Position numbers and translations under genes: made by a program. Under the pieces are notes generated by a model, which searched no databases, had not been told where the DNA came from, and was given only the letters and a program-made list of their open reading frames with translations. This document shows positions 18,932-48,867 of a DNA stretch of 64,000 nucleotides, in pieces (position 1 is the stretch's first letter; every line of letters begins with the position of its first letter). Source of the DNA: an uncultured Muribaculaceae bacterium (GTDB lineage: Bacteria; Bacillota_I; Bacilli_A; RF39; UBA660); NCBI GenBank assembly GCA_964616485.1, contig CAZTRB010000005.1, positions 11,592-75,591 on the forward strand. The letters run 5' to 3'.

Positions 18932-18960
18932 ATTTTAATATCTTTATACATAATAGTCAA
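18932..18960 (-). promoter_or_regulatory. candidate promoter of giant pilin-like gene (TTGACT-17-TAAAAT)
   Basis: Minus-strand ttgact (plus agtcaa 18955-18960), 17-nt spacer, taaaat (plus atttta 18932-18937); about 30 nt upstream of RBS/ATG. Confidence 0.4.
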
Positions 18961-21121: not shown

Positions 21122-21130
21122 GAGGACTTT

Positions 21131-22546
21131 ATGAAAAAAATCTTTAAACCATTTACAATGGTTTTCCTTTTTACAGTGATGTTTTTGTTTAATAATAACG
21201 TCTTGGCAGCTAACTTAAATGTCTCGATAACCTCGAGTACTAGTAGAGCGGTAGTTGGTAACAATATTACTTATACGGTTAGAGTGTCTTCTAATGCTAA
21301 ATTTGGTAATATTCATTATAGATTAGAATATGACACTTCTAAGTTAACTCATGTAAGTGGAACACTAAATAATTTTGATTTAAATGTTATCGATAAATAT
21401 TCTGCTACTTACACTTTTACTTTTAGAGCAAAAGCAAGTGGTAATGCTAGAGTAACGTTCGTAATCAACGAAGCCTTAGAATTAAATAACAATTCTTTTA
21501 ATTATAATACTAGAACCAATAAAGATATAACGATCATAACTCAACAACAATTAGAAGCTAGCTATAGTAAAAACAACTACCTATCATCTTTAAAAATAGA
21601 TAATTTTGAAATGACACCGGCTTTTAATAAAGATACTTTAGAATACTCGATAGAATTAGAAAACGATGTTAAATCAATAAATATTAGCGGTACTAAAGCA
21701 GATTCAACAGCATCAGTCGAAGGTTTGGGTGCACATGAATTAATAGAAGGACCAAATAAAATAAATATAAAAGTTACTGCCCAAAACGGTGCCTCTAGAA
21801 CATATACGATAAATGCAACGGTAAAAGAATTAAATCCCATTATCGTAACTGTCGACGGCAAAGAATATAATGTCGTTAGAAAAAAAGACCTAATAAAAAA
21901 ACCTAATAGCAAATACGAAGAGACGATTATACAAATAAATGAAGAAGATGTCCCAGCTTTCATAAACGAGACGACTAAAGTAACATTAATCGGGCTTAGA
22001 GATGAAGAGGACAACATTTCTTTATTTAGTGTTAAAAATGATACGTATATTCCTTACCAAGAATTCGCTTTTAGTAGTATAATATTTACGGAAGAAAATT
22101 TAGACGATCTTCCTAAAGGTTATACTAAAACTAAATTAAAACTCGAAGAAGTAGAAATAGACGCTTATCAAGATAACTCTAACTTAAATTTCTACCTAAT
22201 AAAAGGAGTGAACATTGAAACGGGAATAACTTCCCTATATCAATATGATAGTAAAGAAAACACTCTTCAAATATATAATGATTCATTAGCTAAACAAAAT
22301 AAGGAATTAACTAATAAGAATAATATTTATCTTTATACTATAATTGGTCTAATAGCACTCATAGCTATATCTTCCGGAACGATATTAGTAAAGACTTTAA
22401 AAAATGAAAAACCTAAAATAAAAAAAGAAGAGAAGACCGACAAAAAAGTCAAAGAAAAAGTAGAGGAACCGAAAGAACCTATCATAGAAGAAGAGAGTCT
22501 AACAAAACAAATAAAGAAAATGAAAAAAAATAAAAAACAATCTTAA
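21131..22546 (+). CDS. type-I membrane protein with signal peptide, cohesin-like N-terminal module, cadherin-like domain, C-terminal TM helix and Lys/Glu-rich cytoplasmic tail
   Basis: Signal MKKIFKPFTMVFLFTVMFLFNNNVLA; NLNVSITSSTSRAVVGNNITYTVRVSSNAKFGNIHYRLEYDTSKLTHVSG resembles cohesin (..YDp.vLe.vsv..G); cadherin-like YLSSLKIDNFEMTPAFNKDTLEYS...INIKVTAQNGASRTYTINATV; TM IYLYTIIGLIALIAISSGTILV; 10-nt gap to upstream dockerin gene. Confidence 0.55.
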   Translation: MKKIFKPFTMVFLFTVMFLFNNNVLAANLNVSITSSTSRAVVGNNITYTVRVSSNAKFGNIHYRLEYDTSKLTHVSGTLNNFDLNVIDKYSATYTFTFRAKASGNARVTFVINEALELNNNSFNYNTRTNKDITIITQQQLEASYSKNNYLSSLKIDNFEMTPAFNKDTLEYSIELENDVKSINISGTKADSTASVEGLGAHELIEGPNKINIKVTAQNGASRTYTINATVKELNPIIVTVDGKEYNVVRKKDLIKKPNSKYEETIIQINEEDVPAFINETTKVTLIGLRDEEDNISLFSVKNDTYIPYQEFAFSSIIFTEENLDDLPKGYTKTKLKLEEVEIDAYQDNSNLNFYLIKGVNIETGITSLYQYDSKENTLQIYNDSLAKQNKELTNKNNIYLYTIIGLIALIAISSGTILVKTLKNEKPKIKKEEKTDKKVKEKVEEPKEPIIEEESLTKQIKKMKKNKKQS

Positions 22547-30436: not shown

Positions 30437-30788
30437 AATAATATTAATAAGCCATGTTCTGTTCCTATTTCTAGGCGACAAACATTTATCTACCGAATTA
30501 CTTCAGTCCTTAACTCCGTTTGATTCCTTCGTTAAAGTTCCTCTACCGAAATTTGAGTTTCTCGCTTGCGGGGTTTATCACGTTCCACTTCCATCGTTTC
30601 CAACTTGTTCGTCACTATGACACTTTATAGCTAATCTAGTCATATCCGAAGACTTAGACTATTTCGCCGCCGTTAGTTACCTACCTAGAGTTATTTTTTC
30701 CTCTAGCACAAACACTACAGACATCTCAGCCTGTGCGAGCATGGACTTTCCTCTATATTATTAAAAATACAGCGTTTGTCTTAATATT
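30437..30788 (-). ncRNA. rnpB: RNase P RNA, type B (Firmicutes)
   Basis: Reverse complement reads AGAGGAAAGTCCATGCTCGCACAGGCTGAGATG...GTGGAACG(T)GATAAACCCC...GCAAGCGAGAAACTCAAATTTCGGTAGAGGAAC...ACAGAACATGGCTTA, near-identical in conserved P4/P15/P18 regions to Bacillus subtilis RNase P RNA; ORF-free, GC-elevated 350-nt gap; gpsB-rnpB synteny as in B. subtilis. Confidence 0.92.
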
Positions 30789-37648: not shown

Positions 37649-37921
37649 CTAGTTAACTGCTTCTTTTAATGCTGTACCAGCTTTAAAAGTAACGGCTTTT
37701 CTCGCAGCAATTTTAACTTTTGCTCCTGTTTGTGGGTTACGTCCCTCTCTTGCTTTTCTATGTGAAACTCCGAAAGTTCCAAATCCAGCAACTGGTACCT
37801 TGTTCCCCTTTGCTAATGCATTAGAAATAGTATTAAATACTGCGTCTAAAGCACGTGTTGCATCAGCTTTTGTAAGTCCCGTTTCTTTTGCAACTGCTTC
37901 TACTAAATCTGCCTTTTTCAT
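37649..37921 (-). CDS. hup: DNA-binding protein HU
   Basis: MKKADLVEAVAKETGLTKADATRALDAVF...GFGTFGVSHRKAREGRNPQTGAKVKIAA; GC-richer codons typical of a highly expressed gene. Confidence 0.97.
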   Translation of the reverse strand: MKKADLVEAVAKETGLTKADATRALDAVFNTISNALAKGNKVPVAGFGTFGVSHRKAREGRNPQTGAKVKIAARKAVTFKAGTALKEAVN

Positions 37922-38018
37922 TATATTACCTCCTCCTTTTAAGCATAATATGCTTACATATACAAAATATCACAAATTATTTGTAAAATCAACATATTAT
38001 ACGTATTTTTCAATATAT

Positions 38019-39059
38019 TTACATAATTAACGCTTTTTCATTCAAAACATAGCGATAAGCCTTATTTTCATGGATAATAATAAACGTACTTTCTCTTTTC
38101 CTCTTACTCTCAAAAAACAAGATAGGTATCCTTAATTCATCTTCGATATCGATTAGATCTTTAACGTTAGTTATATCCATTACATTAAATTTACTTAAGT
38201 CTGGTTTTTTAGCCACTTCAGCGATAACATTGGCATAAGTAGTTAAGATCCTATCTCTTTCTTTAGTGTAAGGGTCAGCGTTTTTAAGGTGTAGTACTCT
38301 CTTTAAATAATAGAAGAATAAGACAAATGACACCATTACTAAGAATATTCCAATAGTAAGACCGTACTGATTAACGATGTTATCTTTACTAAAAACATTT
38401 TTATTCTCATTGAAAGATCCCGTTTTATCGACACTTACTACCGTATCCAAAAGAGGAATTTTAGCTGTCATAGTGTGAAGATCAGCGACTTTCTTAGCCG
38501 TTTCTTTAGTCGTAATAAGATTGTTTATTTCAAAGACAACTTTTATATAAGCCTCTGTTAAGATAGAACTTTCTTTTCTAAACTCCAAAGCTTCTTCTTG
38601 ATATTCTTTATAATCGATAGTCGTTTTATAATCAAAGAACACGACTCCTGTCTCTTGTTTTATGACTTTATTTTTAGGAAACAAAACGTCTTCTCTCTTC
38701 CATAATTCTTCCGTTTGAAGGCCGTCTTTATAAGTGTTAACTAAAAACAAAGATATAGAATATTCCGCTTCAGAATCAATTAGATTAATAGACGTAAGGT
38801 CATAAGTAAATTTTAAATCGATATAGTCGATATATTTAGCTAGAATCTTATTCTTATTAATATATTCATCTTTATATAAAAAGTTATCTTTTAGTCTAAA
38901 ATTATACTCGATATCACCGAAAGATTTATAATCGACAACGATATTATTTTTGTTATTTTCTATACTCGTACTATCATAAGTTATAATTGATCCGGCAAAA
39001 AAGAGTAATACCCCTAGTAATAATAATACTATACTTTCCTTTTCTTTAGTTCTTTTCAT
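38019..39059 (-). CDS. bitopic membrane protein (N-terminal TM, ~220-aa extracytoplasmic domain, second TM, ~100-aa cytoplasmic tail), last gene of der-hup island
   Basis: TM1 IVLLLLGVLLFFAGSII, TM2 GLTIGIFLVMVSFVLFFYYL; 14-nt gap to SipW-like gene; no assignable motif. Confidence 0.5.
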   Translation of the reverse strand: MKRTKEKESIVLLLLGVLLFFAGSIITYDSTSIENNKNNIVVDYKSFGDIEYNFRLKDNFLYKDEYINKNKILAKYIDYIDLKFTYDLTSINLIDSEAEYSISLFLVNTYKDGLQTEELWKREDVLFPKNKVIKQETGVVFFDYKTTIDYKEYQEEALEFRKESSILTEAYIKVVFEINNLITTKETAKKVADLHTMTAKIPLLDTVVSVDKTGSFNENKNVFSKDNIVNQYGLTIGIFLVMVSFVLFFYYLKRVLHLKNADPYTKERDRILTTYANVIAEVAKKPDLSKFNVMDITNVKDLIDIEDELRIPILFFESKRKRESTFIIIHENKAYRYVLNEKALIM

Positions 39060-39073
39060 CTTGACCTCCTATT

Positions 39074-40213
39074 TTAATTATTTAAAAGTTCATTAAACCA
39101 TACTGTAGGATATCCAAAATATGGTAGAGAAACATTATATTTTGCAACTATGTCTTCCGGATAAACTCTCCAGTTATCTTCTGACGAATTATTATCTCCT
39201 TTTGTTATGAGATAATCTATATCACCATTAGATAATCTACTTATATAATTAATCCTGTGAACGACATAGGTATTATCGTATCTATAATAGATTATATCAT
39301 ATTGAACTAAATTATTAATATCTTTATCACTTAATTTTTCTAAAATTAATAAATCTCCTCTTTTAAAAGTATCTTTCATACTATCGGATAAAACGGCCAT
39401 CGGATAATAATTAAATACTCTTAAGATAAACATTATTAATACCGATACGACGATGGCAAGAATAGTTATACCACCATTCTTTTCATCGATAAACCTTCTC
39501 GTTCTAGAATCGCTATTATTAACCAAGGTACTTATATTAAAATAGACGAACATCGGTAGCAACAAACCGAATAGAGTCGTTACAATCCAGGGATGGCTAG
39601 GTAAAATAGGTAAGATGATTAGTAATAGTCTCGTCCATACCAAGTAGATTATAGTCGTCTTATACTTCATATTTCTTTGTAAATAAGTCATGACATAACT
39701 AGTTATAATAAGCGGAAGGACTAATGAAGAAAACATCTTAAAAAGATAACTAAACTCACTTACAGAGAAAATATATAAGACATTCATACTACTGAAAGCC
39801 AATAAAAATGAAATGATACTATTATTAATTAAAGTATCTTTGGAGTTGGTAATTAACTTATATCTTATATACTCGTTTACCGTTATCGTTCCAATAGTAG
39901 TAAAAACAACTTTTAAAAGAGTAATTAAAGACCTATTATATATCGATTTCTCATAACCAAAGAAAAGACCAGACATAAAATATATTAAAGAATATATTAT
40001 TAAGATTATTATTATGTTTTGAGTCTTATCGTAGTTATCTTTGCTCTTAGTATATTTAGTATCGAATAAAAAGAAGAAAGTAACTGCTATTATCGATAAA
40101 ATTATCATATTCATTATTCCTGCATACACAGAGAAGATAGAAGTAACTAGATAATTTTGAAATATTATATATAAAAACAGTATTATATATGTTAAATATA
40201 TTTTCTTCATCAT
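39074..40213 (-). CDS. SipW-type (ER/archaeal-type S26B) signal peptidase I fused to a Cys-free ~8-TM N-terminal domain
   Basis: C-terminal peptidase MAVLSDSMKDTFKRGDLLILEK (Ser box; SipW VVLSGSMEPEFNTGDLILV) and ITKGDNNSSEDNW (GDNN box); ~280 aa of TM helices with no Cys precede it; AGGAGG RBS before MMKK. Confidence 0.6.
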   Translation of the reverse strand: MMKKIYLTYIILFLYIIFQNYLVTSIFSVYAGIMNMIILSIIAVTFFFLFDTKYTKSKDNYDKTQNIIIILIIYSLIYFMSGLFFGYEKSIYNRSLITLLKVVFTTIGTITVNEYIRYKLITNSKDTLINNSIISFLLAFSSMNVLYIFSVSEFSYLFKMFSSLVLPLIITSYVMTYLQRNMKYKTTIIYLVWTRLLLIILPILPSHPWIVTTLFGLLLPMFVYFNISTLVNNSDSRTRRFIDEKNGGITILAIVVSVLIMFILRVFNYYPMAVLSDSMKDTFKRGDLLILEKLSDKDINNLVQYDIIYYRYDNTYVVHRINYISRLSNGDIDYLITKGDNNSSEDNWRVYPEDIVAKYNVSLPYFGYPTVWFNELLNN

Positions 40214-40310
40214 GGTCCTCCTATTATAAATATTATATACTACAACAAAGAAAAAAAACAACTTTTACAGTCTTTTGTACTGTTTAATTGTTTTTTTGTA
40301 AACTTATCTT

Positions 40311-40826
40311 TTAACGAACTACATAGTCAAGTGTCAGCCTCAAGTCTTTTGTTAAGTCTTCAGCGGTAACTTCTTCAGTCATATCTGGATTATAATAAGC
40401 TATAACTTCAAATAATTTGCTTTGTCCGACTTGTAATACTTCACCGGCTTCTATTCCGTTTATTGTATAAATAATAAATCCTTCTCCATAGTCTTTAGGA
40501 TTTAATTCAATGGCATTTAATTTAGCATCTAGGTTTCCTTGATTTCTAACATTAACAACATATTTAACGGTATCACCAGGATCGACAAAAGTAGCGCTAA
40601 ATATAGCGGTCTTAGAATCTAAAACGGTCGATTCTAAACTTTTTCCACTTCCCTCAGTCTCTGTGCTATTAATTGCCGTTATCGCGACGTCAAAGTCAGG
40701 GTTAACGATCGTAGCACTTCCTTTTATTTCTAACTGCGTAGATAAAAGAGCATACCCTACTGACACAAAAACAAGTGCAACTAGTAAAGCTCCAATCATC
40801 GTATTTTTCTTATCTTTATTGCTCAT
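40311..40826 (-). CDS. secreted/anchored protein, possible TasA/camelysin-like SipW substrate (alternatively an effector immunity protein)
   Basis: Signal/anchor MSNKDKKNTMIGALLVALVFVSVGYALLSTQLEIKGSA; VDPGDTVKYVVNVRNQGNLDAKL resembles TasA LKPGDKLTKDFQFENNGSLAIK; position directly upstream of SipW-like peptidase. Confidence 0.4.
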   Translation of the reverse strand: MSNKDKKNTMIGALLVALVFVSVGYALLSTQLEIKGSATIVNPDFDVAITAINSTETEGSGKSLESTVLDSKTAIFSATFVDPGDTVKYVVNVRNQGNLDAKLNAIELNPKDYGEGFIIYTINGIEAGEVLQVGQSKLFEVIAYYNPDMTEEVTAEDLTKDLRLTLDYVVR

Positions 40827-40880
40827 ATAATCCTCCTATAATAAATTTTAATATATATGGCTTTTATTGTCAATTATTCG

Positions 40881-41948
40881 CTATGAATCTACTACTTTTA
40901 ATTTAAGACGAATCATACTCTTAACCTGATTAAATTGTTCAGTAGAATGAAACATTGTCTGTGAAATTGTCGTTGAACCTACTTTATCACCAGTTACGAC
41001 CCATTCGTAATAGTTTGTTCTTAAGAATGTACTAGGGTCTTTTCTATTTACATAAGGTTCAGAAACAGCTGTCGCATAGTTTTGCCAACCTTTAGCACCA
41101 TCAGCCGTCGTCCTTTGAAGCTGTTTTATTTTACCAGCACTAACTGGAAGTTTTACGATTATTCTAATAGTCTCTCCCTTTTTTACGACTATTTCATCAT
41201 CTCTTTTATATTCTTTTCCGTTATACCAAAGAGTAGGAGTTTGGGCTACTTTACCTATTTTAGGTGAGATATAATAATCATCATTATCAATATCTCCGAC
41301 AAAAGCCCTAGCTTCTTCATCGAGACTAAGATTAGTACTAGTTATTTGACTATTGACTATCTTTTTAACTTCTTCTTCCTTTATTTTAATCTCTTCTATT
41401 TTAGTAGTAGTAACTCCTTTAATAGAGGCTATCTCTTTATCAATACTCTCTTTTAAAATCGTCAAAGTTCTAAAGTCACTATCGACATTCGTCGTTAATT
41501 CATCTTTAGTAGATTGATAAGTCTTATAAGCACTAGTTAAAGTAGTCGTCTCTTCATTATTACTATCTAACTCGTATTTAGGTGAAGGTTCTCTTAGTTT
41601 ATCAAGAGTCTCTTTATTTTTCTCATACTGTAAATCTAAATCTTTAAAAGTCTCTAACATCGATACTAGATTGTTTACTATGCGTTCTGAAACTGGAATC
41701 AATGCTTGTTCGACATTTTTATTAAGATTTTTAATAGCTTCTATTATCTGTGGTAAAAACTCGGACTTTAAATACTCTTGTCCCGCTTCTTTCCAATTCT
41801 CACCGCTCATCGAATCTAATAGATTTGTGTCTATATCAACTATTTTAGTAACATCTTCAAGCACCCTTTTCGCTTTGTTAACAAGTTCTTTTTCACTTTT
41901 GAGTTTTTCATAATAATTATCGTAAGGATTAATATAAAAAATTGCCAT
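40881..41948 (-). CDS. LXG-like N-terminal domain protein with unassigned beta-rich C-terminal domain (T7SSb effector-like)
   Basis: No signal peptide; IVDIDTNLLDSMSGENWKEAGQEYLKSEF parallels LXG segment IVDLDNAFQGKGADAIKAFF at the same position (~aa 35-60); long predicted helical N-half; preceded by two WXG100-like genes. Confidence 0.5.
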   Translation of the reverse strand: MAIFYINPYDNYYEKLKSEKELVNKAKRVLEDVTKIVDIDTNLLDSMSGENWKEAGQEYLKSEFLPQIIEAIKNLNKNVEQALIPVSERIVNNLVSMLETFKDLDLQYEKNKETLDKLREPSPKYELDSNNEETTTLTSAYKTYQSTKDELTTNVDSDFRTLTILKESIDKEIASIKGVTTTKIEEIKIKEEEVKKIVNSQITSTNLSLDEEARAFVGDIDNDDYYISPKIGKVAQTPTLWYNGKEYKRDDEIVVKKGETIRIIVKLPVSAGKIKQLQRTTADGAKGWQNYATAVSEPYVNRKDPSTFLRTNYYEWVVTGDKVGSTTISQTMFHSTEQFNQVKSMIRLKLKVVDS

Positions 41949-41964
41949 TTAATCACATCCTTTA

Positions 41965-42288
41965 TTAATTTATATCTAATTTGCTAGTATTGTCTTCTAA
42001 AAATTGAATTCGATTTCTTTCATCGGTATTATAAGCTTCGATTGCTTCTTCTAAAAACAAAATCAAACTCTCTAATTCTTTTATTTCTAAAGGAAAGTTT
42101 TCACTTATCTTTAAATACTTGTCATACATAATTTGTTGAGTCTTACCAACCCAAACATCAGTTTCTCCATTTATTTGCTTTAGATTATGATCTAATTCAT
42201 CGAATTTACTTTCAAGACTAAACTTTTTTTGTTTTAAAAGAGCTACTACTTTTTCAAGTTCTTTAGTATTAATATCTAAATTCATCAT
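41965..42288 (-). CDS. WXG100-family small helical protein (EsxA/Lap-like)
   Basis: 107 aa; central DVWVGKTQQIMYDKYLKISENFPLEIKELESLILFLEEAI aligns with EsxA [32 protein letters not shown]. Confidence 0.6.
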   Translation of the reverse strand: MMNLDINTKELEKVVALLKQKKFSLESKFDELDHNLKQINGETDVWVGKTQQIMYDKYLKISENFPLEIKELESLILFLEEAIEAYNTDERNRIQFLEDNTSKLDIN

Positions 42289-42587
42289 AGCTTATCACCG
42301 TCTTTTCTCATTTCAGCAACAAACTCATTATTTCTCTTAGTGTATACCCCCATACAATAGTCTATCTTTTCATAGATTCTTTTCAACCTATGATTCTCAT
42401 ATTTACTTTTTGAAATAAATCCACGATACTTATCACAAAAAGCATCACTATCGACGCCTTTCCAATTTTGTTCGATTATCGGAAGTAAGTCTTCTATTTC
42501 TTTAATTACTTTTTCTATCTCTTCATACTTAGTCTCAATAGATAACGAAACACTATCCATTTCTTGAAATTTAACTTTTAGTTTCAT
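42285..42587 (-). CDS. WXG100-like small protein (second helper)
   Basis: 100 aa; IEQNWKGVDSDAFCDKYRGF contains W-x-G followed by AF as in WXG100 proteins; 4-nt overlap with next gene. Confidence 0.45.
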   Translation of the reverse strand: MKLKVKFQEMDSVSLSIETKYEEIEKVIKEIEDLLPIIEQNWKGVDSDAFCDKYRGFISKSKYENHRLKRIYEKIDYCMGVYTKRNNEFVAEMRKDGDKL

Positions 42588-42588
42588 A

Positions 42589-43482
42589 TTAAACTCCTTG
42601 CTTCAATACATCGATATATATTTCGTTAGTCAATAGGGTTTCAACGGTAATATCTAACTTTTTAGCGATGTTATTGATATAGTTTTTATATATACTCATC
42701 TCTTTATTAGTTAAGCCATCCGGTATTTCAGGAGCATAATAAAGAGAGTGAAAAGTTTTAAACAAAAGAGTCTTATTTTTATCCTCGATTAATAGTTCGG
42801 AAAAAGTAATATTACTTGATTCTGCTACTTTTTCTAGATGTTCTTTAGTTATTAAAAAAGTCAGGCTTTGTTCAAAAATATTAAAATCTTTGTTTTTTGC
42901 TAACAATTCTAAAAGTTGTTTTTGAATGACAAAATTATCTTCTGTAGAAAAAACTAAATTTGGTGCGAATCTTTTTAAGTAGAAGATTAAGGCCTTAGTG
43001 TTTTGGCCTCCAAATAAAAGACGATTTAAATTAAATGGGTCTTTTTCGTTAACGTTTTGAACTAGCAAACTTTGTCCAAACGAATCGAAATCAGCAAGGT
43101 CCGTAATCTGGCTATTAGGAAGCATGCTTGGTCCACCTACAGTCTCTCCAATTACACCACTAAATCCACCACCTCCAGTATAGCCACTATAACCACTACC
43201 ATTATTAGTATCATCTTCGACAATCTTACCAAGATTCTCTTCACTAGTTATCATGTCTTCACTATGTCCTCTAAGTCTTCTAATTAATTGTGTTTTATTT
43301 GTAGCAAGACTATCTACGTCTTTTTTAATATCTTCGGCAACAGTCGATAGTTCTAATTCTTTAAATACAGCAAAATCAGTAGCCACCGAAGTAGCGACTG
43401 CTTCCAAAAGGGCCGAAGTCTCTGATAACTTACTAATTACTTCTTCTAATTCTGCAGAGTTATAAATTATTTCATTTGTCAT
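42589..43482 (-). CDS. hypothetical bipartite protein: helical N-domain, Gly-rich linker, ~170-aa C-domain
   Basis: No signal/TM; GSGYSGYTGGGGFSGVIGETVGGP linker; begins 18 nt after der stop with AGGTG RBS. Confidence 0.5.
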   Translation of the reverse strand: MTNEIIYNSAELEEVISKLSETSALLEAVATSVATDFAVFKELELSTVAEDIKKDVDSLATNKTQLIRRLRGHSEDMITSEENLGKIVEDDTNNGSGYSGYTGGGGFSGVIGETVGGPSMLPNSQITDLADFDSFGQSLLVQNVNEKDPFNLNRLLFGGQNTKALIFYLKRFAPNLVFSTEDNFVIQKQLLELLAKNKDFNIFEQSLTFLITKEHLEKVAESSNITFSELLIEDKNKTLLFKTFHSLYYAPEIPDGLTNKEMSIYKNYINNIAKKLDITVETLLTNEIYIDVLKQGV

Positions 43483-43500
43483 ATAATCACCTACTTATTA

Positions 43501-44805
43501 TTAATCACTTCTATTTTTAAACTGTAATACTATCGGAGTACCACTTAATTCAAAATTTTCTCTTAATTTATTTTCTAAATATCTCTCGTATGAAAAGTGA
43601 ACGAGATTTTTATTATTAACATGAAATGTATATTTAGGAGGTTTCTTTCCCGTTTGATTGACAAAATATATCTTAAGTCTCTTACCTTTATAAGATGGTG
43701 GTGGATTTAATGTGTATGCTTCAATCATAACTTCAGATAAAAGACTACTCGCTATTTCTCTACTTATATTTTCTTTTACTTTAAGTATCTCAGGCATAAT
43801 AGTATGAATTCTCTTTTTAGTTAAAGCCGATGTAAATACGATCGGTACATAACTTAAAAATTGAAACTCTGATCTTACTTTCTTAGTATATTCTCTTATA
43901 TCCATATCTTTAACAGTATCCCATTTGTTAACGACGATTATTAATCCTTTACCACTTTCCAAGACATATCCGGCAATATGTTTATCATGCTCGATAATTC
44001 CTTCTTCCGCATTAATTACTAAGAGACAAATATCGCTACGATCAATCGCCTTCATACTTCTAAGAGCACTATACTTCTCAATATTTTCAAATATTCGTCC
44101 CTTTTTTCTTAATCCAGCTGTGTCGATAGCTACAAACTCTTCATCGTTATATCTGAACACCGTATCAACGGCATCTCTAGTCGTTCCAGGAACATCACTA
44201 ACAATTAAACGGTCTTCATTTAAAAGAGCATTTATAATACTACTCTTACCGACATTGGGCCTTCCAACGACGGAAAACTTTAAACGATTATCTTCTATTG
44301 AATAATCTCTCTTCGGTAAATGCGATACTATTTCATCGAAAAGTTCGATGAAACCGATATTATGCTCTCCACTTACTTGAACATAACTATCGAATCCAAG
44401 CTCATAAAAATCATAGATATTATCGATACTCTTTTTACTATCTACCTTGTTAATAACGACTATTACTTCCTTGTTACTTTTTCTTAACATATCTCTTACT
44501 AAATAGTCGTTACTAGTCAAGCCCTCTTTACCATCGACGATAAATAACACGACATCGGCTTGTTCGATAGCAATTTCCGCTTGCATTTTTATTACGTCAT
44601 TAAATTTTATCTCTTCACTATCGATACCACCGGTATCAATAACATTGAACTTATAATCTCCGTAAGTAGTATCACTATATATCCTGTCTCTAGTAACTCC
44701 AGGAGTATCTTCGATAATAGATATTCTTGAACCGACCATACGATTGAAGATTGTGCTTTTTCCAACATTAGGCGTTCCGACTAATGCGATAATTGGAAGG
44801 TTCAT
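43501..44805 (-). CDS. der: ribosome biogenesis GTPase Der (EngA), tandem GTPase domains + KH-like domain
   Basis: Two G-domains: GTPNVGKST...DTPG and GRPNVGKSS...DTAG. Confidence 0.96.
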   Translation of the reverse strand: MNLPIIALVGTPNVGKSTIFNRMVGSRISIIEDTPGVTRDRIYSDTTYGDYKFNVIDTGGIDSEEIKFNDVIKMQAEIAIEQADVVLFIVDGKEGLTSNDYLVRDMLRKSNKEVIVVINKVDSKKSIDNIYDFYELGFDSYVQVSGEHNIGFIELFDEIVSHLPKRDYSIEDNRLKFSVVGRPNVGKSSIINALLNEDRLIVSDVPGTTRDAVDTVFRYNDEEFVAIDTAGLRKKGRIFENIEKYSALRSMKAIDRSDICLLVINAEEGIIEHDKHIAGYVLESGKGLIIVVNKWDTVKDMDIREYTKKVRSEFQFLSYVPIVFTSALTKKRIHTIMPEILKVKENISREIASSLLSEVMIEAYTLNPPPSYKGKRLKIYFVNQTGKKPPKYTFHVNNKNLVHFSYERYLENKLRENFELSGTPIVLQFKNRSD

Positions 44806-44871
44806 ATAATCACCTCGATTTTCTTAATTATAGCAAATTTTCTCATCTTTGTTAACAAAAAAAGAAATAAA

Positions 44872-45462
44872 CTATTTCTCTTTTACTATTTGTTCTATTT
44901 GATTGACAATCTCTTCGCGTCCTAATTTAGTAACACTTGAAAAAAGAACGATATTGTCTCCGACAATTATATCTAAAGTATCTTTAAGTTGTTTTAAATT
45001 CTTCTCTTTTTCTCTAGAACTAACTTTATCTGTCTTTGTAGCAACGATCGTTACCGGTATTTGATAATGCTTTAAATAATTATACATTAAGACATCATCA
45101 CTACTAGGTTTATGACGAAAATCGACTAATAGAAAGACTCTCTTTAACTCGTCTCTTTTCTCCAAATACTCTTCTACCATAAGACCAAACTTCTTAATTT
45201 CCTCTTTACTAGTATCAGCATAACCGTAACCGGGCACATCGACTAAATAAAAGCTATTATCGACATTAAAGAAATTTAAAGTACTAGTCTTTCCAGGCTT
45301 AGAAGAAATACGAGCCATGTTTCTTCTATTGACAATCGTATTTAAGAAACTACTCTTACCGACATTACTGCGTCCTAACATAATGAATTCTTTCATGCCA
45401 TCTTCCGGATATTGACTTCTTCTAACGGCACTTATAAATAAATCGACATTATTAAAATTCAT
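44872..45462 (-). CDS. engB: ribosome biogenesis GTP-binding protein EngB/YsxC
   Basis: ISAVRRSQYPEDGMKEFIMLGRSNVGKSSFLN...DVPGYGYA; start set at MNFNN by alignment to YsxC. Confidence 0.9.
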   Translation of the reverse strand: MNFNNVDLFISAVRRSQYPEDGMKEFIMLGRSNVGKSSFLNTIVNRRNMARISSKPGKTSTLNFFNVDNSFYLVDVPGYGYADTSKEEIKKFGLMVEEYLEKRDELKRVFLLVDFRHKPSSDDVLMYNYLKHYQIPVTIVATKTDKVSSREKEKNLKQLKDTLDIIVGDNIVLFSSVTKLGREEIVNQIEQIVKEK

Positions 45463-46426
45463 CTCTCTCACCTTGACTTTCAATATACTCTTTACAAGTA
45501 TTGTCTAAATCTCTAATAAAAGGCATGACTTCATCCATACTAGAAAGTCTAGCACCAGAAGCAAATTGATGACCTCCACCCCTATATTTTTCAGCTACAG
45601 TATTTATTATCGGACCACGTGATCTAATATTAAACTTGATTATATTATTTTTAATATCTTCTGATACCGTAACCCATACCAAGATTTCTTCGATATTATT
45701 AAAGTTATTTATTAAGTTTCCAGCACTACTAGCATCTACTCCATACTCGGTCATTATATCGTTAGTAATGATTGTATAAGCAAGCTTATTGTCAGTAACA
45801 ATCATGTTTTGAGATATATAACCTTGTAATTTTATCTCATTTAAAGGCCTTAAATATAACTTTTGATATAAGTCTTCGACATCTAAGTGATACTTCTCAA
45901 TAAGCTCGGCAACAATTCTCAAAGTATTGTGATTACTATTGAAAAGGAATCTGTTAGTGTCCGATATTATACCTAAAAACAAATACTTAGCTACCTCTTC
46001 ATCAAGTTGTAAGTTGTTTTCTTTTATAAAACGATAGACTAATTCTGAGGCACTACTTGCCGTAGTATCTACATACTCTAAAGGGCCGAAAACATCGATT
46101 GCTGGATGATGGTCTATCTTGCATATCTCTTTATACAAATCGACATTAGAAGCTTCAATTCTCTTCATATCGGGCGTATCGACGACGATAAGTAAAGCTT
46201 CTTTATCTTTAGGATCAAACTTATCTAATTTAGGAAAATAGTTATACTTAGCACTCTTAGCTCCGACTGCATATATTTCTTTATCTTTAAAGGCTAACTT
46301 TAAAGATTCTTTTAAAGCTAGTTGTGCTCCCAAGGCATCGGGATCAACTCCGATATGCCTAGCGATTACTATTATCTTATATTCTTTTACTTTTTTATAT
46401 ATTTTTTTTAACATTGGTACATCCAT
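45452..46426 (-). CDS. nrnA: DHH/DHHA1 phosphoesterase NrnA (bifunctional oligoribonuclease / pAp phosphatase)
   Basis: IIVIARHIGVDPDALGAQLAL (DHH motif I), DHHP motif IV, C-terminal GGGH. Confidence 0.8.
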   Translation of the reverse strand: MDVPMLKKIYKKVKEYKIIVIARHIGVDPDALGAQLALKESLKLAFKDKEIYAVGAKSAKYNYFPKLDKFDPKDKEALLIVVDTPDMKRIEASNVDLYKEICKIDHHPAIDVFGPLEYVDTTASSASELVYRFIKENNLQLDEEVAKYLFLGIISDTNRFLFNSNHNTLRIVAELIEKYHLDVEDLYQKLYLRPLNEIKLQGYISQNMIVTDNKLAYTIITNDIMTEYGVDASSAGNLINNFNNIEEILVWVTVSEDIKNNIIKFNIRSRGPIINTVAEKYRGGGHQFASGARLSSMDEVMPFIRDLDNTCKEYIESQGERDEF

Positions 46427-46427
46427 T

Positions 46428-47609
46428 CTATTTGTTAATTATTTCCACCGTATCTCTTGCAATCATTAACTCTTCGTCCGTCGGTACAGTATATACTAAG
46501 ACACTAGAGTCTTCACTACTAATTTTAGCAAAAGTACCACGAGCTTTATTAGCTTCATTGTCTATCTTAATTCCAAGACAATTTAGTTTCTCGATTATTT
46601 CTGCACGAGATTCAGGACTTCGCTCACCTATTCCCGCCGTAAAGCAAATAGCGTCTACTTTACCTAACTGAACATAATACTGAGCTATATATTTAACGAT
46701 CGAGTTAACGAACATCTCTTGAGCGAGAATACAGTTTTCATCTCCTCTTTTAATACCTTCTTCGATATCGCGAGAATCACTACTTACGCGGCTTACTCCT
46801 AAAAGACCAGATTTCTTATTTAAGTCATTCATTACCTCGGTAGCACTCTTTCCTTCTTTTTCCATAACATAAGGAATAATAGATACGTCGATATCACCAC
46901 TTCTTGTTCCCATTACGACACCGGCATGAGGAGTAAATCCCATCGAAGTATCGATACATTTACCGTCTCTAACAGCAGTTATACTAGAACCGTTACCTAA
47001 GTGACAAGAGATAATATTAATATCTTCTCTTCCTAATTCTTCCATCATACGAAGAGTAATAAACCTGTGAGAAGTACCGTGAGCCCCATATTTTCTAACC
47101 GAATAATCTTCATACCAAGTATGTGGTACCGGATACAAGTATCTCTCTCTTGTCATCGTTTGATGAAACGCTGTATCAAAAACAGCTACCATCGGAGTCT
47201 TTGGTAAAACTTCTCTAAAAGCCTCGATACACGTGACATTTGCCGGATTATGAAGTGGAGCAAATTCATTGAAACTAATTATATCTGCTAATACTTCATC
47301 AGTTATCATGATCGAAGAGACATACTTGTCTTTACCATGAACGACACGATGACCAACTCCCTCTATCTCTTCATAATTAGAGATTACTTGGAGTTCTATT
47401 AATTTATCTAATAAGAGTTTAACGGCTACTGCATGATTTTCTAATTCATTTTCAACAACGATCTTATCACCCTTATACTTTAGAGCATAACGTCCTCCCT
47501 CAATTCCTATTCTTTCAAATAGTCCTGATATTAAAACTTCTTCACTATTAATATCAAATAAAGAAAATTTTAAAGAACTACTTCCTGCATTAATCGACAT
47601 TATTTTCAT
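46428..47609 (-). CDS. ackA: acetate kinase
   Basis: MKIMSINAGSSSLKFSLFD N-terminus, HLGNGSS, full-length collinearity. Confidence 0.95.
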   Translation of the reverse strand: MKIMSINAGSSSLKFSLFDINSEEVLISGLFERIGIEGGRYALKYKGDKIVVENELENHAVAVKLLLDKLIELQVISNYEEIEGVGHRVVHGKDKYVSSIMITDEVLADIISFNEFAPLHNPANVTCIEAFREVLPKTPMVAVFDTAFHQTMTRERYLYPVPHTWYEDYSVRKYGAHGTSHRFITLRMMEELGREDINIISCHLGNGSSITAVRDGKCIDTSMGFTPHAGVVMGTRSGDIDVSIIPYVMEKEGKSATEVMNDLNKKSGLLGVSRVSSDSRDIEEGIKRGDENCILAQEMFVNSIVKYIAQYYVQLGKVDAICFTAGIGERSPESRAEIIEKLNCLGIKIDNEANKARGTFAKISSEDSSVLVYTVPTDEELMIARDTVEIINK

Positions 47610-47665
47610 AAATTTACCTCTTTCAATAAGACTATTTTAACAAAGATTACCTTATTTGTGAACAC

Positions 47666-48853
47666 TTACAACAAATATTCAAAATTATCTTCTTCTTTTT
47701 CGGTAATGGTAATAGTCTCTATCTTACTTATCGTCTCATCAATCTTCGTTTCATAATCGATCTTTTTCTCTTCTTCTAGACACTCACTTAAGTAAGGATG
47801 AATAACGGGATGCTCTGGTACAAAGATCGTACAACAGTCTTCGAAAGGAAGAATGCTCGTATTATATGTATCTATTTCCTCAGCTATCTTAATTATATCT
47901 AATTTATCCATGCAAGCGACGGGTCTTATAACGGGCATATTAGTAACTTCGTTTATAACCGACATACTCCTAAGAGTCTGACTAGCTACTTGACCTATTG
48001 ATTCACCATTTATTAACACTTGGCACTTTCTTCTCTTAGCATATTTATCAGCTATCCTATACATCATACGACGCATGATCGTAATCATATAATCTTTACT
48101 CATATTTTGATAAATCGCTTCTTGTATATCGGTAAAAGGAACGATATGTAATTTAATTTCTTTGGTATAAGCAGCTAATTTTCTAGTAAGAGTAATGACT
48201 TTCTTTCTAGCATCTAAACTAGTATGAGGAAGTGCTTCAAAATATAACATCTCGGCATTAATTCCTCTTCTCATCGAAAGATAAGCGGCTACTGGCGAAT
48301 CGATACCACCACTTAACATGACTAACCCCTTACCCATACTATTAAGTGGATAACCACCTAAACCATTATAACTATCTGTATATATATAGACATATTCATT
48401 TCTAATCTCGATACTTACTAATAATTCTGGATTAGTAACATTAACCTTTTTATCTTTAGTATTCTTAAGTATAAGCCCACCCATTTGTCTAGAAAACTCA
48501 AGACTAGAGACGGGAAAAGTCTTATCACTACGTTTCGTTTCTACTTTAAACGTAGAAAAACTTTTATCTTTGATTATAGATAAAAGTGTCTTTTCGATAG
48601 TTTCAATATCTTTACTTATCTTATAAGCTAAAACATACTTATGAATTCCAAAAGTCTTATTAATTACTTTTAAAATCTCTTCTTTATCTTTAATATCAAA
48701 CTCTATATACATACGAGCAAGATCTTTTCTTATTTTAACATTATAATTAAGTAGTTTTTCATCTAAATCTCTATAAAGTAGACCTATAAAGAAATTACGA
48801 TTATTCTTTTTAGTATTAAGTTCACCATACTTAATCATTATAACTAGATTCAT
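47666..48853 (-). CDS. thiI: tRNA 4-thiouridine(8) synthase ThiI
   Basis: THUMP N-half, PP-loop SGGIDSPVAAY; ATG at 48853 has AAAGAGG RBS (ORF-track start is GTG 6 nt upstream). Confidence 0.9.
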   Translation of the reverse strand: MNLVIMIKYGELNTKKNNRNFFIGLLYRDLDEKLLNYNVKIRKDLARMYIEFDIKDKEEILKVINKTFGIHKYVLAYKISKDIETIEKTLLSIIKDKSFSTFKVETKRSDKTFPVSSLEFSRQMGGLILKNTKDKKVNVTNPELLVSIEIRNEYVYIYTDSYNGLGGYPLNSMGKGLVMLSGGIDSPVAAYLSMRRGINAEMLYFEALPHTSLDARKKVITLTRKLAAYTKEIKLHIVPFTDIQEAIYQNMSKDYMITIMRRMMYRIADKYAKRRKCQVLINGESIGQVASQTLRSMSVINEVTNMPVIRPVACMDKLDIIKIAEEIDTYNTSILPFEDCCTIFVPEHPVIHPYLSECLEEEKKIDYETKIDETISKIETITITEKEEDNFEYLL

Positions 48854-48867
48854 AAGCACCTCTTTTG

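What the first reader, a model, noticed from the sequence alone, without database searches (positions are those of the whole stretch)
38019..43482. 5.4-kb accessory insertion between conserved der and hup: T7SS-effector-like genes joined to a SipW/TasA-like secretion module
In Bacilli, der and hbs are near neighbours. Here eight closely spaced minus-strand genes (gaps of 14-54 nt or overlaps) fill the interval. These are a bipartite unknown protein, two WXG100-like proteins, an LXG-like protein, a TasA/camelysin-like protein, a SipW-type peptidase fused to an 8-TM domain, and a bitopic membrane protein. The first gene begins 18 nt after der. The combination of T7SSb substrate-like proteins with a SipW-dependent secretion module is not a described arrangement. 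No EssC/EsaA/EssB core is in the window.
Basis: partly seen in the sequence, partly recalled or inferred. Interest (0 to 1): 0.6.

Follow-up and report, generated by a model that had tools for sequence, protein, structure and literature searches.

The report
Secretion-substrate cassette beside a surface-fibre module
Between the housekeeping genes der and hup of an uncultured gut bacterium lie two separate, poorly studied surface systems: a four-gene set of type VII secretion-style helical proteins, and a three-gene set that probably builds a TasA/AbpX-like extracellular fibre; they look like neighbours in a variable stretch of chromosome rather than one new machine.

Summary
The genes are real, but there are seven, not eight. 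Genes g2 and g3 belong to the WXG100 superfamily. Gene g4 has a modular helical N-domain and an Ig-like C-domain; it resembles LXG in architecture but does not match the Pfam LXG model. Gene g6 is an archaeal/ER-type signal peptidase I behind about 8 extra transmembrane helices, and g7 is DUF5305. Gene g5 does not match Pfam camelysin/TasA, but its profile matches the archaeal fibre protein AbpX (hhalign 88%, E 3e-6).

Related uncultured Bacilli MAGs carry g5-g7 at the same chromosomal position, so that module is a conserved resident and not an insertion. The g1-g4 set is present in some lineages, absent in others, and replaced by another WXG100 cluster in a third group.

Gene g5 has its own promoter, conserved across lineages, and a terminator-like hairpin. 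Cassettes like g1-g4 occur without g5-g7, and on one metagenomic contig they lie directly next to a bona fide essC. The g5/SPase/DUF5305 arrangement matches loci recently described for AbpX and Tafi fibres.

Best reading: two independent modules lying side by side. Each is a new member or variant of a known kind. Functional coupling is not excluded, because one lineage has g5 fused into the g1-g4 operon. Interest is moderate to low.

The parts
42589..43482 (-). g1, 297 aa. It has an N-terminal helical hairpin, a Gly-rich linker, and a C-terminal helical domain with repeated [ILV]T[ILV]E.LL motifs. It is the first gene of the four-gene cassette.
   Evidence: ORF. Weak DUF5344 (Lap3-type) hit, E 0.07. 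The N-terminus resembles the g3 family by hhalign (72%, E 3e-5). Homologues lead every g1-g4-like cassette. The C-terminal repeats are shared with the 741-aa protein of the L011 WXG100 cluster.
42285..42587 (-). g2, 100 aa, a WXG100-superfamily protein with the motif W42-K-G44.
   Evidence: Pfam WXG100 E 4.9e-5, 24.0 bits, below the 27.3 cut-off. TIGR03930 E 7e-6. hhalign of the family against bona fide WXG100 gives 96%, E 4e-9 over 82 columns. W-x-G is invariant in 10 of 10 homologues.
41965..42288 (-). g3, 107 aa, a second WXG100-superfamily protein with the motif W46-V-G48. It overlaps g2 by 4 nt.
   Evidence: Weak hits to YwqH-like (E 1e-3) and ESAT6_2 (E 1e-4). hhalign against bona fide WXG100 gives 82-92%, E 1e-5 to 8e-7. 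The Trp is invariant, and the family shares a C-terminal motif of the form N-L-[DSNE]-[IVL]-N.
40881..41948 (-). g4, 355 aa, a modular effector-like protein with no Sec signal. It has an elongated three-helix N-domain with invariant W52 in the first turn, a disordered linker, and a C-terminal Ig-like beta-sandwich.
   Evidence: AF2 model, pLDDT 86.5. The C-domain resembles Ig-like domains of the S-layer protein SbsC, E 6e-5. The N-domain occurs with other C-termini, with Peptidase_C39_2 in 21 of 54 proteins scanned. The C-domain occurs at the end of Sec-signal Ig-repeat surface proteins.
40845..40873 (-). Sigma-A-type promoter of g5 (TTGACA-17-TAAAAT), followed by a conserved 5' UTR and ribosome-binding site.
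   Evidence: It matches 11 of 12 consensus positions. The same -35, spacer length, -10 and UTR are present upstream of g5 in 9 of 10 lineages, whether the upstream gene is g4, spoVIF or something else.
40311..40826 (-). g5, 171 aa, the presumed fibre subunit. It has a Sec-type signal peptide with a nearly invariant S-V-G-Y-A|L-L-S cleavage region, an amphipathic N-terminal strand, and an acidic beta-sandwich.
   Evidence: AF2 predicts an N-terminal helix plus a beta-sandwich, pLDDT 77. The mature protein has pI 4.23 and 15.9% Asp+Glu. Profile comparison with the AbpX family gives 88.5%, E 2.7e-6, above 60 of 60 column shuffles. There is no Peptidase_M73 hit.
40251..40299 (-). Terminator- or attenuator-like hairpin with a U-run, between g5 and g6.
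   Evidence: Predicted at -12.8 kcal/mol in the window. A hairpin plus U-run of different sequence lies at the same place in six other lineages.
39074..40210 (-). g6, 378 aa, an archaeal/ER-type (SipW-like) signal peptidase I. A conserved domain of about 8 TM helices precedes the usual membrane anchor.
   Evidence: TIGR02228 scores 68.7 bits, above the 51.85 cut-off. The SipW equivalog model scores 57.6, far below 190. Peptidase_S26 matches. Hydropathy gives about 9 TM segments. The S-x-S-M, H-R-I and G-D-N-N boxes are invariant, as are many polar residues in the TM domain. The TM domain has no Pfam family.
38019..39059 (-). g7, 346 aa, a DUF5305 protein: TM helix, extracellular domain, TM helix, cytoplasmic domain. 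It is the presumed accessory subunit of the signal peptidase.
   Evidence: PF17231 scores 48.5 bits, above the 29 cut-off. Hydropathy places TM segments at 7-31 and 228-256. The accessory role was proposed for TafG and for AbpX loci in PMC11821415, PMC12337348 and bioRxiv 10.64898/2026.01.04.697558.
43501..44805 (-). der (engA), the upstream flank.
   Evidence: Two GTPase domains plus a KH-like domain. It is 77-79% identical to der in the syntenic relatives.
37649..37921 (-). hup (HU), the downstream flank.
   Evidence: Bac_DNA_binding domain. It is 86% identical in relatives.

Best explanation
The interval holds two independent modules that happen to be neighbours.

[quoted passage not shown] It has two WXG100-type proteins (g2, g3) and a larger helical accessory protein (g1). 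I infer that these bind the elongated helical N-domain of g4 and target it to an EssC-driven T7SSb encoded elsewhere in the genome. This would parallel the way Lap proteins target LXG toxins. The cargo domain of g4 is an Ig-like surface-protein domain, not a recognisable toxin. No immunity gene follows g4.

Module B (g5-g7) is a fibre module of the TasA superfamily, AbpX type. Gene g5 is transcribed from its own strong promoter, and a hairpin limits read-through into g6-g7. I infer that g5 is exported by Sec and cleaved after the conserved G-Y-A by the dedicated multi-TM signal peptidase g6, working with the DUF5305 protein g7. The acidic beta-sandwich subunits would then polymerise outside the cell by donating their freed N-terminal strand to the next subunit.

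Shown here: the domain identities, the remote homologies, the conserved synteny, the independent distribution of the two modules, the conserved promoter and hairpin, and the physical linkage of the cassette family to essC. Inferred: secretion routes, protein complexes, peptidase cleavage and fibre formation.
For: Module A.
- The g2 and g3 families match bona fide WXG100 proteins by hhalign (96% and 82-92%), and their W-x-G motifs are conserved.
- g1 shows weak DUF5344 (Lap3-type) similarity, and g3 weak YwqH-like similarity. DUF5344 is one of the families encoded upstream of LXG toxins (PMC10801868).
- The g4 N-domain is a helix-turn(W52)-helix fold plus a third helix. It is fused to many different C-termini.
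- The four-gene unit recurs as a block, sometimes in tandem.
- On L034, two such cassettes directly abut EssC (TIGR03928, 1041 bits against a 778 cut-off) and further WXG100 genes.

Module B.
- g6 passes the archaeal-type SPase I model and has about 8 extra TM helices.
- g7 passes the DUF5305 model.
- The g5 profile matches the AbpX family (88.5%, E 2.7e-6). The score is 44.3, against a maximum of 22 in 60 column shuffles, and the beta-core alone scores 31.4.
- Mature g5 has pI 4.2 and 16% acidic residues, as reported for AbpX homologues.
- The published AbpX and Tafi loci have the same SPase I (10 TM helices) plus DUF5305 plus small subunit layout.

Independence of the two modules.
- The g5 promoter is conserved in 9 of 10 lineages, and a hairpin follows g5 in all lineages examined.
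- g5-g7 occurs without g1-g4 in L008, L014, L016 and L017.
- Cassettes occur without g5-g7 in L022, L026/L029, L030 and L034.
Against: - No T7SS core gene lies in the 64-kb window or about 4 kb beyond each end. Whether this organism can export g1-g4 is therefore unknown.
- g4 and 53 relatives fail the Pfam LXG model, and no PDB LXG structure was recovered by sequence or fold search.
- g2 and g3 fall below the curated WXG100 cut-offs.
- The g5 link to AbpX is remote. Foldseek against the PDB gave nothing significant, with the TasA fibre 8aur at E 0.029.
- WXG-type cassettes of two different kinds sit next to g5-g7 in six of about ten lineages. In the L003 lineage g5 follows g4 by 9 nt, has no promoter, and g6-g7 are absent. 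This could point to a functional tie between the modules.
Confidence: 0.6

Rival explanations
1. The two modules work together. Protein g4 is exported by a T7SS with help from g1-g3, and it uses its Ig-like C-domain to cap, anchor or decorate the g5 fibre. Alternatively, the helical proteins chaperone g5 assembly.
For: g1-g4 and g5 are contiguous in at least four diverged lineages: the window, L002, L003-6 and L020. In the L003 lineage g5 follows g4 by 9 nt with only a ribosome-binding site between them, and g5 stays intact although g6-g7 are gone. A second kind of WXG100 cluster lies beside g5-g7 in L011 and L015. The AbpX paper reports tip and anchor proteins in such loci. The g4 C-domain is an extracellular surface-protein domain.
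Against: The g5 promoter is conserved whatever lies upstream. g5-g7 exists alone in several lineages, and cassettes exist alone elsewhere. A Sec-signal protein carrying the g4 C-domain (P0019) is not near any g5-like or SPase module. g4 has no donor-strand-like N-terminus and no detectable similarity to g5 (and the Pfam results).
Confidence: 0.12
2. Module B is not a fibre system. It is a dedicated processing route for a soluble or wall-bound beta-sandwich protein, such as a calcium-binding adhesin or a matrix or spore-surface protein.
For: Only weak generic beta-sandwich hits were found: DUF11, DUF7507 and CARDB, the collagenase collagen-binding domain at E 0.02, and nothing significant by Foldseek. 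The AbpX donor-strand signature residues are not conserved. In sporulating relatives the locus lies between spoVIF and spoIVA.
Against: The match to AbpX is collinear from the signal peptide through the core and exceeds all shuffles. In the AF2 monomer, the N-terminal region that includes the stretch just after the predicted cleavage site (residues 16-40) has pLDDT below 50, as expected for a donor strand. The layout of a strong promoter followed by a hairpin after g5 is typical of a major structural subunit. The module is kept in the window organism, which has lost spoVIF, spoIVA and the SASP gene from the syntenic positions.
Confidence: 0.15
3. The whole 5.4 kb is a recently acquired accessory island inserted between der and hup.
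For: B. subtilis has no such genes between der and hbs (recalled from memory, not tested). g1-g4 presence varies among relatives. g1 starts 18 nt after der.
Against: g5-g7 lies at the same position in all relatives at 37-54% identity, while der is 77-79% identical. GC content is not deviant. No integrase, repeats or tRNA genes flank the interval. g1-g4 orthologues are as diverged as g5-g7. What differs in the window is the loss of spoVIF, spoIVA and small ORFs, not a gain.
Confidence: 0.05
4. The multi-TM signal peptidase and DUF5305 pair is itself an export device for the signal-less WXG-like proteins, in a genome without a T7SS.
For: No essC lies in the 64-kb window. The 8-TM domain of g6 is conserved, rich in invariant polar residues, and has no known family. 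A related MAG has only a 1.31-Mb chromosome.
Against: The cassette family lies next to a canonical essC on L034. Cassettes occur without g6-g7. g6 or g6-g7 are lost in lineages that keep WXG clusters, namely L015 and L003/4. The literature assigns this peptidase type to Sec substrates.
Confidence: 0.03

Closest known systems
T7SSb LXG effector loci with Lap targeting factors, for example TelA-LapA3-LapA4 of Streptococcus intermedius and ywqH-ywqI-ywqJ of B. subtilis (PMC10801868, PMC9600955)
   Same: Small WXG100-like helical proteins are encoded directly upstream of a larger protein. That larger protein has an elongated helical N-domain that is kept while the C-terminal domain is swapped. There are weak DUF5344 and YwqH-like similarities. 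The cassette family is physically linked to essC on L034.
   Different: The g4 N-domain is not detected by Pfam LXG (0 of 54 proteins), and it carries a W-x-E-[LA]-G turn instead of L-x-G. Both small partners keep a true W-x-G motif. A third accessory protein of about 300 aa (g1), with a repeat domain, leads the cassette. The cargo here is an Ig-like surface domain, and no immunity gene follows. No T7SS core is seen near the window copy.
AbpX-type loci of the TasA superfamily in archaea and Bacillota (bioRxiv 10.64898/2026.01.04.697558)
   Same: A small acidic secreted beta-sandwich subunit (pI about 4, about 15% Asp+Glu), a dedicated signal peptidase I with many extra TM helices, and a DUF5305 accessory protein. 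The g5 profile matches the AbpX family (88.5%, E 2.7e-6).
   Different: About 9 TM helices are predicted rather than the 10 reported. The donor-strand signature (aromatic at position 2, acidic at position 4) is not conserved. No minor subunit, tip, SLH or LPXTG anchor, or c-di-GMP regulator is present in the module. The module sits at a fixed housekeeping and sporulation locus in small-genome gut Bacilli.
Tafi (Tat-fimbriae) loci of haloarchaea: TafD signal peptidase plus TafG DUF5305 plus TafA/E pilins (PMC11821415, PMC12337348)
   Same: A dedicated signal peptidase I paired with a DUF5305 protein, next to 150-200-aa pilin-like subunits that assemble by strand donation.
   Different: Tafi subunits use Tat signals, whereas g5 has a Sec-type signal without a twin arginine. 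TafD has 4 TM helices and a C-terminal extra domain. Tafi loci carry regulators and further structural genes.
The tapA-sipW-tasA operon of Bacillus subtilis
   Same: An ER/archaeal-type signal peptidase encoded beside the fibre subunit that it processes.
   Different: g5 fails the Peptidase_M73 (TasA/camelysin) model. g6 fails the SipW equivalog model (57.6 bits against 190) and has 8 extra TM helices. There is no TapA, and a DUF5305 protein is present instead.

Membership tests
WXG100 (PF06013 / TIGR03930) | About 100 aa forming a helix-turn-helix, with a central W-x-G motif | tested here: met
   g2 is 100 aa with W42-K-G44, and the motif is invariant in 10 of 10 homologues. g3 is 107 aa with W46-V-G48; the Trp is invariant and the Gly is present in 8 of 10.
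WXG100 (PF06013 / TIGR03930) | Score above the curated HMM cut-off | tested here: not met
   g2 scores 24.0 bits against 27.3 (Pfam) and 26.1 against 44.85 (TIGR03930). g3 scores 15.5 and 14.3.
WXG100 (PF06013 / TIGR03930) | Profile-level homology to bona fide members | tested here: met
   hhalign of the g2 family against the L011/L015 WXG100 proteins (one of which scores 47 bits on Pfam) gives 96%, E 4e-9. The g3 family gives 82-92%. The two bona fide paralogues match each other at 87%.
WXG100 (PF06013 / TIGR03930) | Export by an EssC/EccC type VII system | not testable with these tools
   No essC lies in the window. The family is linked to essC only on L034.
LXG polymorphic toxins (PF04740) | Match to the LXG domain model or to solved LXG structures | tested here: not met
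   No LXG hit in g4 (E up to 1) or in any of the 54 proteins scanned (g4 plus 53 that share its N-domain; E up to 0.01). The PDB sequence search gave only coiled-coil noise. Foldseek returned no LXG chain among the top 50.
LXG polymorphic toxins (PF04740) | A conserved helical N-domain with interchangeable C-terminal domains | tested here: met
   N-domain residues 1-180 are found with other C-termini, including Peptidase_C39_2 in 21 of 54 and a 5353-aa protein. The C-domain is found on unrelated Sec-signal proteins. The AF2 model is an elongated three-helix domain.
LXG polymorphic toxins (PF04740) | Small alpha-helical targeting-factor genes immediately upstream | tested here: met
   g2 and g3 (and g1) precede g4 in every cassette. 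This rule for LXG loci comes from PMC10801868.
LXG polymorphic toxins (PF04740) | A toxin C-domain with a downstream immunity gene | tested here: not met
   The C-domain is Ig-like and resembles SbsC domains. Only 54 nt, carrying the g5 promoter, separate g4 from g5.
LXG polymorphic toxins (PF04740) | Genomic association with the T7SSb core | tested here: inconclusive
   Two cassettes abut EssC on L034 (TIGR03928, 1041 bits). Nothing comparable lies near the window copy.
TasA/camelysin (Peptidase_M73) | Match to the family model | tested here: not met
   No hit in g5 or in 10 homologues at E up to 1.
TasA/camelysin (Peptidase_M73) | TasA-like jelly-roll fold | tested here: inconclusive
AbpX-like fibre subunits (TasA superfamily) | Sequence homology to AbpX | tested here: met
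   hhalign of A7 against A8 gives 88.5%, E 2.7e-6 over 130 collinear columns. The score is 44.3, against a maximum of 22 in 60 column shuffles; the core without the signal peptide and donor strand scores 31.4. This is remote homology, and the support is moderate.
AbpX-like fibre subunits (TasA superfamily) | Low pI (about 4) and about 15% Asp/Glu | tested here: met
   Mature g5 has pI 4.23 and 15.9% Asp+Glu.
AbpX-like fibre subunits (TasA superfamily) | [quoted passage not shown] | tested here: not met
   The predicted mature N-terminus is L-L-S-T-Q-L-E. In the alignment, Trp corresponds to Leu and Glu to Thr.
AbpX-like fibre subunits (TasA superfamily) | Dedicated signal peptidase I with about ten TM helices, plus a DUF5305 accessory protein, in the locus | tested here: met
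   g6 has about 9 predicted TM helices. g7 scores 48.5 bits on PF17231, above the 29 cut-off.
AbpX-like fibre subunits (TasA superfamily) | Polymerisation by donor-strand complementation | not testable with these tools
   No multimer prediction was available. In the monomer model the region after the cleavage site has low confidence.
SipW / archaeal-ER-type signal peptidase I | Match to the archaeal-type SPase I model, with Ser/His catalytic boxes | tested here: met
   TIGR02228 scores 68.7 bits against a 51.85 cut-off. S-x-S-M, H-R-I and G-D-N-N are invariant in 7 of 7 sequences.
SipW / archaeal-ER-type signal peptidase I | SipW equivalog (NF046067) | tested here: not met
   The score is 57.6 bits against a 190 cut-off.
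DUF5305 (TafG-like SPase accessory) | Match to the family model, with TM / extracellular domain / TM / cytoplasmic domain topology | tested here: met
   PF17231 E 1e-12, 48.5 bits against 29. Hydropathy places TM segments at 7-31 and 228-256.

The most novel reading that the evidence does not exclude
The T7SS-type cassette and the fibre module form one surface organelle. In this reading, the signal-less protein g4 is delivered by a type VII route with the help of g1-g3. Its Ig-like domain then becomes the tip, anchor or decoration of a Sec-exported, SipW-type-processed g5 fibre. That would be a structure built from two different secretion pathways. The L003 lineage, where g5 has been absorbed into the g1-g4 operon and the dedicated peptidase lost, would be the clearest trace of such coupling.
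Probability: 0.1. Interest if true: 0.7.

Novelty: new variant of a known kind. Interest (0 to 1): 0.35.

Why it matters
Module B extends the recently recognised AbpX/Tafi type of TasA-superfamily fibre system into small-genome, uncultured gut Bacilli. This system combines a dedicated multi-TM signal peptidase I with a DUF5305 protein. In these bacteria it sits at a fixed, conserved locus with a strongly conserved promoter, which makes it a tractable candidate for a gut biofilm or adhesion fibre.

Module A defines a family of T7SSb-linked cassettes that current LXG and WXG100 models miss. The cassette has two true W-x-G proteins, a repeat-bearing accessory protein of about 300 aa, and an effector with a W-x-E-L-G helical targeting domain. 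Its cargoes include papain-like peptidase domains and Ig-like surface domains, with no evident immunity genes. Recognising the family would improve the annotation of type VII substrates in gut Firmicutes. The finding does not by itself reveal a new mechanism.

Tried and rejected
Searches that gave nothing useful:
- Pfam and NCBIfam on the seven proteins gave no LXG, Peptidase_M73, DUF3130 or DUF3958 hits.
- PDB sequence searches with the g5 profiles (A2, A7) and the g4 N-domain profile (A5) returned only weak collagenase collagen-binding-domain hits and coiled-coil noise.
- Foldseek of the g5 model against the PDB gave no hit at E 1e-3 or better.
- A metagenome scan with the g5 profile found nothing.
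- The word-index homologue search found only 3-4 relatives each for g4, g5 and AbpX.

Ideas rejected:
- A recent horizontally acquired island, because of the synteny and the flat GC profile.
- A prophage or integrative element, because there are no tRNA genes and no integrase among the annotated flanking genes.
- The 698-aa gene upstream of g5 in L011 as a fibre tip protein. It is a signal-less helical-repeat protein.
- Sec-signal proteins bearing the g4 C-domain as partners of g5-like modules. The context of P0019 shows none.
- The g6 TM domain as a CPBP or exosortase relative. It has no Pfam hit and no conserved His or Cys.

Full report
WHAT IS THERE. Window 38019-43482 carries seven minus-strand ORFs between der (43501-44805) and the HU gene hup (37649-37921). 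From der to hup the intergenic gaps are 18, 1, -4, 16, 54, 97, 14 and 97 nt. Gene g6 most likely starts at the ATG at 40210, behind an AGGAGG ribosome-binding site, giving 378 aa as called in the public collection; the 395-aa TTG start is unlikely. GC content across the cluster (26-36%) matches the flanks. All seven ORFs have homologues at 25-54% identity, in the same order, on independent contigs, so they are real genes.

DOMAIN IDENTITIES, g1-g4. Gene g2 (100 aa) hits WXG100 just below the curated cut-offs: Pfam 24.0 bits against 27.3, and TIGR03930 E 7e-6. Gene g3 (107 aa) hits YwqH-like and ESAT6_2 weakly. Family profiles settle the question. By hhalign, the g2 family matches bona fide WXG100 proteins from the related loci L011 and L015 at 96% (E 4e-9, full length). 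The g3 family matches at 82-92%, as well as the two bona fide paralogues match each other. W-x-G is invariant in ten g2 homologues, and the Trp is invariant in ten g3 homologues.

Gene g1 (297 aa) has a helical N-terminus with weak DUF5344 similarity (E 0.07) and g3-like similarity. A Gly-rich linker follows, then a C-terminal domain with [ILV]T[ILV]E.LL repeats that it shares with a 741-aa protein of the L011 WXG100 cluster.

Gene g4 (355 aa) has no signal peptide and no Pfam hit. Its AF2 model (pLDDT 86.5) shows helix 22-47, a turn carrying the invariant W52, helix 56-117, a beta-hairpin, helix 139-177, a disordered linker and a C-terminal Ig-like sandwich. The sandwich is closest to domains of the S-layer protein SbsC (E 6e-5).

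A full HMMER search of 1.84 billion representative proteins found 207 relatives of g4 and showed that it is modular. The N-domain occurs with other C-termini; 21 of the 54 proteins scanned (g4 plus 53 N-domain relatives) carry a Peptidase_C39_2-like domain, and one is a 5353-aa protein. The C-domain closes Sec-signal surface proteins made of Big_2 and Bact_surface_Ig-like repeats. None of the 54 proteins hits Pfam LXG, and PDB sequence and fold searches did not recover an LXG structure. Thus g4 resembles an LXG effector in architecture and gene context, but it is not a detectable member of that family.

DOMAIN IDENTITIES, g5-g7. Gene g6 passes the archaeal-type signal peptidase I model (TIGR02228, 68.7 bits against 51.85) but not the SipW equivalog model (57.6 against 190). 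It has invariant S-x-S-M, H-R-I and G-D-N-N boxes. Ahead of the usual membrane anchor it has about eight extra TM helices, with many invariant polar residues and no Pfam family.

Gene g7 passes DUF5305 (48.5 bits against 29). Its topology is TM helix, extracellular domain, TM helix, cytoplasmic domain.

Gene g5 (171 aa) has a Sec-type signal with a nearly invariant S-V-G-Y-A|L-L-S region. The N-terminal region that includes the stretch after the predicted cleavage site (residues 16-40) has low model confidence, and a beta-sandwich follows (AF2 pLDDT 77). It fails Peptidase_M73 in all 11 family members, and Foldseek against the PDB is uninformative, with the TasA fibre at E 0.029.

LITERATURE LINK. 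A search for DUF5305 led to three papers. In haloarchaeal Tafi loci the signal peptidase TafD is paired with the DUF5305 protein TafG (PMC11821415, PMC12337348). A 2026 preprint on the archaeal fibre protein AbpX (10.64898/2026.01.04.697558) reports several things. AbpX homologues occur in Bacillota. Their dedicated signal peptidase I has ten TM helices. DUF5305 is the presumed accessory subunit of the peptidase. The subunits are acidic (pI about 4, about 15% Asp/Glu) and polymerise by donor-strand complementation.

I took the AbpX sequence from that paper's supplement and its four database relatives. A profile-profile comparison with an 11-member g5 family gave 88.5% probability, E 2.7e-6, over 130 collinear columns. 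The score of 44.3 exceeded all 60 column-shuffled controls (maximum 22). The beta-core alone, without the signal peptide and donor strand, still scored 31.4. Mature g5 has pI 4.23 and 15.9% Asp+Glu. [quoted passage not shown] I therefore regard g5-g7 as a divergent AbpX-type module of the TasA superfamily, with moderate confidence.

COMPARATIVE CONTEXT. Look-ups and a genome scan recovered the locus in several uncultured Bacilli MAGs from animal guts, including a closed 1.31-Mb chromosome. In all of them the order is ackA-nrnA-engB-(ORF)-der-(small ORF)-spoVIF-[variable]-g5-g6-g7-(racemase)-spoIVA-hup-cca-dnaD-nth. This matches the window's flanks. The der proteins are 77-79% identical, hup 86%, and g5-g7 37-54%.

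The module is therefore an old, fast-evolving resident of the locus and not an insertion. The variable part is what precedes g5:
- g1-g4 in the window, L002, L003-6 and L020;
- nothing in L008-10, L016 and L017;
- unrelated genes in L014;
- in L011 and L015, a different WXG100 cluster between der and spoVIF, plus a helical-repeat gene.

The window lineage has instead lost spoVIF, spoIVA, the SASP gene and small ORFs that are present at the syntenic positions in relatives.

ARE THE TWO HALVES ONE SYSTEM? Several results argue for independence. A near-consensus promoter (TTGACA-17-TAAAAT, 40873-40845) lies in the 54-nt g4-g5 gap. The same -35 box, spacing, -10 box and 5' UTR precede g5 in 9 of 10 lineages, whatever gene is upstream. 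A hairpin plus U-run follows g5 in every lineage examined, with different stem sequences; this pattern is typical of a highly expressed structural subunit. The g5-g7 module occurs alone in several lineages.

Conversely, the g1-g2-g3-g4 block recurs without g5-g7. It occurs twice in tandem beside infC in L022 and L026/L029, in L030, and twice in tandem in L034. In L034 the cassettes are followed directly by a 1534-aa protein that passes the EssC equivalog model (TIGR03928, 1041 bits against 778; it has FHA and FtsK domains). Further WXG100 genes follow. This is the main evidence that the cassette family is T7SSb cargo.

No T7SS core gene is present in the 64-kb window or about 4 kb beyond it. 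Export in this organism remains an inference.

RESIDUAL DOUBT. WXG-type clusters of two kinds lie beside g5-g7 in about six of ten lineages. In the L003 lineage g5 follows g4 by 9 nt without a promoter, and g6-g7 are missing. L015 has lost g6 but kept g7. These facts fit a variable hot spot undergoing erosion. They also leave about a 10% chance of real functional coupling, for example with g4 acting as a fibre tip or anchor. A Sec-signal protein carrying the g4 C-domain is not near any such module, which argues against a general tie.

VERDICT. The most likely picture is a T7SSb-type substrate cassette of an unrecognised family lying next to an AbpX/TasA-superfamily fibre module, in a variable interval of a conserved chromosomal neighbourhood. 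Each module is a new member or variant of a known kind. I found no paper describing the juxtaposition, but it is probably not a functional unit. Interest 0.35.

Noticed in passing
window 37649-48859, compared with L008, L011 and L016: The window lineage lacks spoVIF, spoIVA, a SASP gene, a racemase and two small ORFs. Its relatives carry these at syntenic positions around der, hup and ackA. In L008 spoIVA is itself split into fragments. This suggests that sporulation is being lost in this clade of small-genome gut Bacilli.
   Followed up: partly
L034 5759-20306: A T7SSb locus with an unusual layout. Two g1-g4-like cassettes are followed by essC (1534 aa), an 87-aa ORF, a 508-aa g1/741-like protein with a weak GerD hit, two WXG100 genes, and a 677-aa protein cut by the contig end. 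No essB, esaA or yukD model hit was seen in the part held.
   Followed up: partly
L003 10001-12542 and L004 2201-6043: In this lineage g5 follows g4 by 9 nt and has no promoter of its own. g6 and g7 are absent. An AAA_14/DUF4143 ATPase gene lies between g5 and spoIVA.
   Followed up: partly
L015 9269-11011: g6 (the signal peptidase) is deleted, leaving 178 nt between g5 and g7, but the DUF5305 gene is kept. This is odd if DUF5305 is only a peptidase accessory.
   Followed up: no
L019 9833-10912: A distant DUF5305 protein (30% identity) stands alone directly after a penicillin-binding-protein gene in a division/cell-wall (mraZ-rsmH-ftsL-pbp) cluster. No dedicated signal peptidase is nearby.
   Followed up: no
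L022 5523-11362; L026 and L029: Tandem g1-g4-like cassettes lie beside infC-rpmI-rplT. Their effectors end in Peptidase_C39_2-like domains, and no candidate immunity gene follows them.
   Followed up: partly
g3 family alignment (window 41965-42288 and homologues): The last five residues follow a conserved motif of the form N-L-[DSNE]-[IVL]-N in nearly all g3 homologues. This may be an export or recognition signal.
   Followed up: no
window 13846-18960 (minus strand): A 1704-aa protein with a prepilin-type N-terminal methylation motif and Big_7 domains. It lies directly upstream of a glycosyltransferase cluster (GT4, Alg14/Alg13-like, GT2).
   Followed up: no
window 19106-22546 (plus strand): Two secreted-looking proteins with cadherin-like beta-sandwich domains. 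The first also carries an SH3_3 domain and a C-terminal type I dockerin, which is unexpected in a small-genome Bacilli lineage. A LytR-CpsA-Psr/PASTA protein follows.
   Followed up: no
L011 7789-9885 and L012 312-2408: A 698-aa signal-less protein made of about 37-aa helical repeats lies directly upstream of the g5 promoter in this lineage. It gives many spurious weak Pfam hits, and its function is unknown.
   Followed up: partly
window 30444-30787 (minus strand): Class B bacterial RNase P RNA (296 bits), consistent with a Bacillota/Mollicutes-type organism.
   Followed up: no
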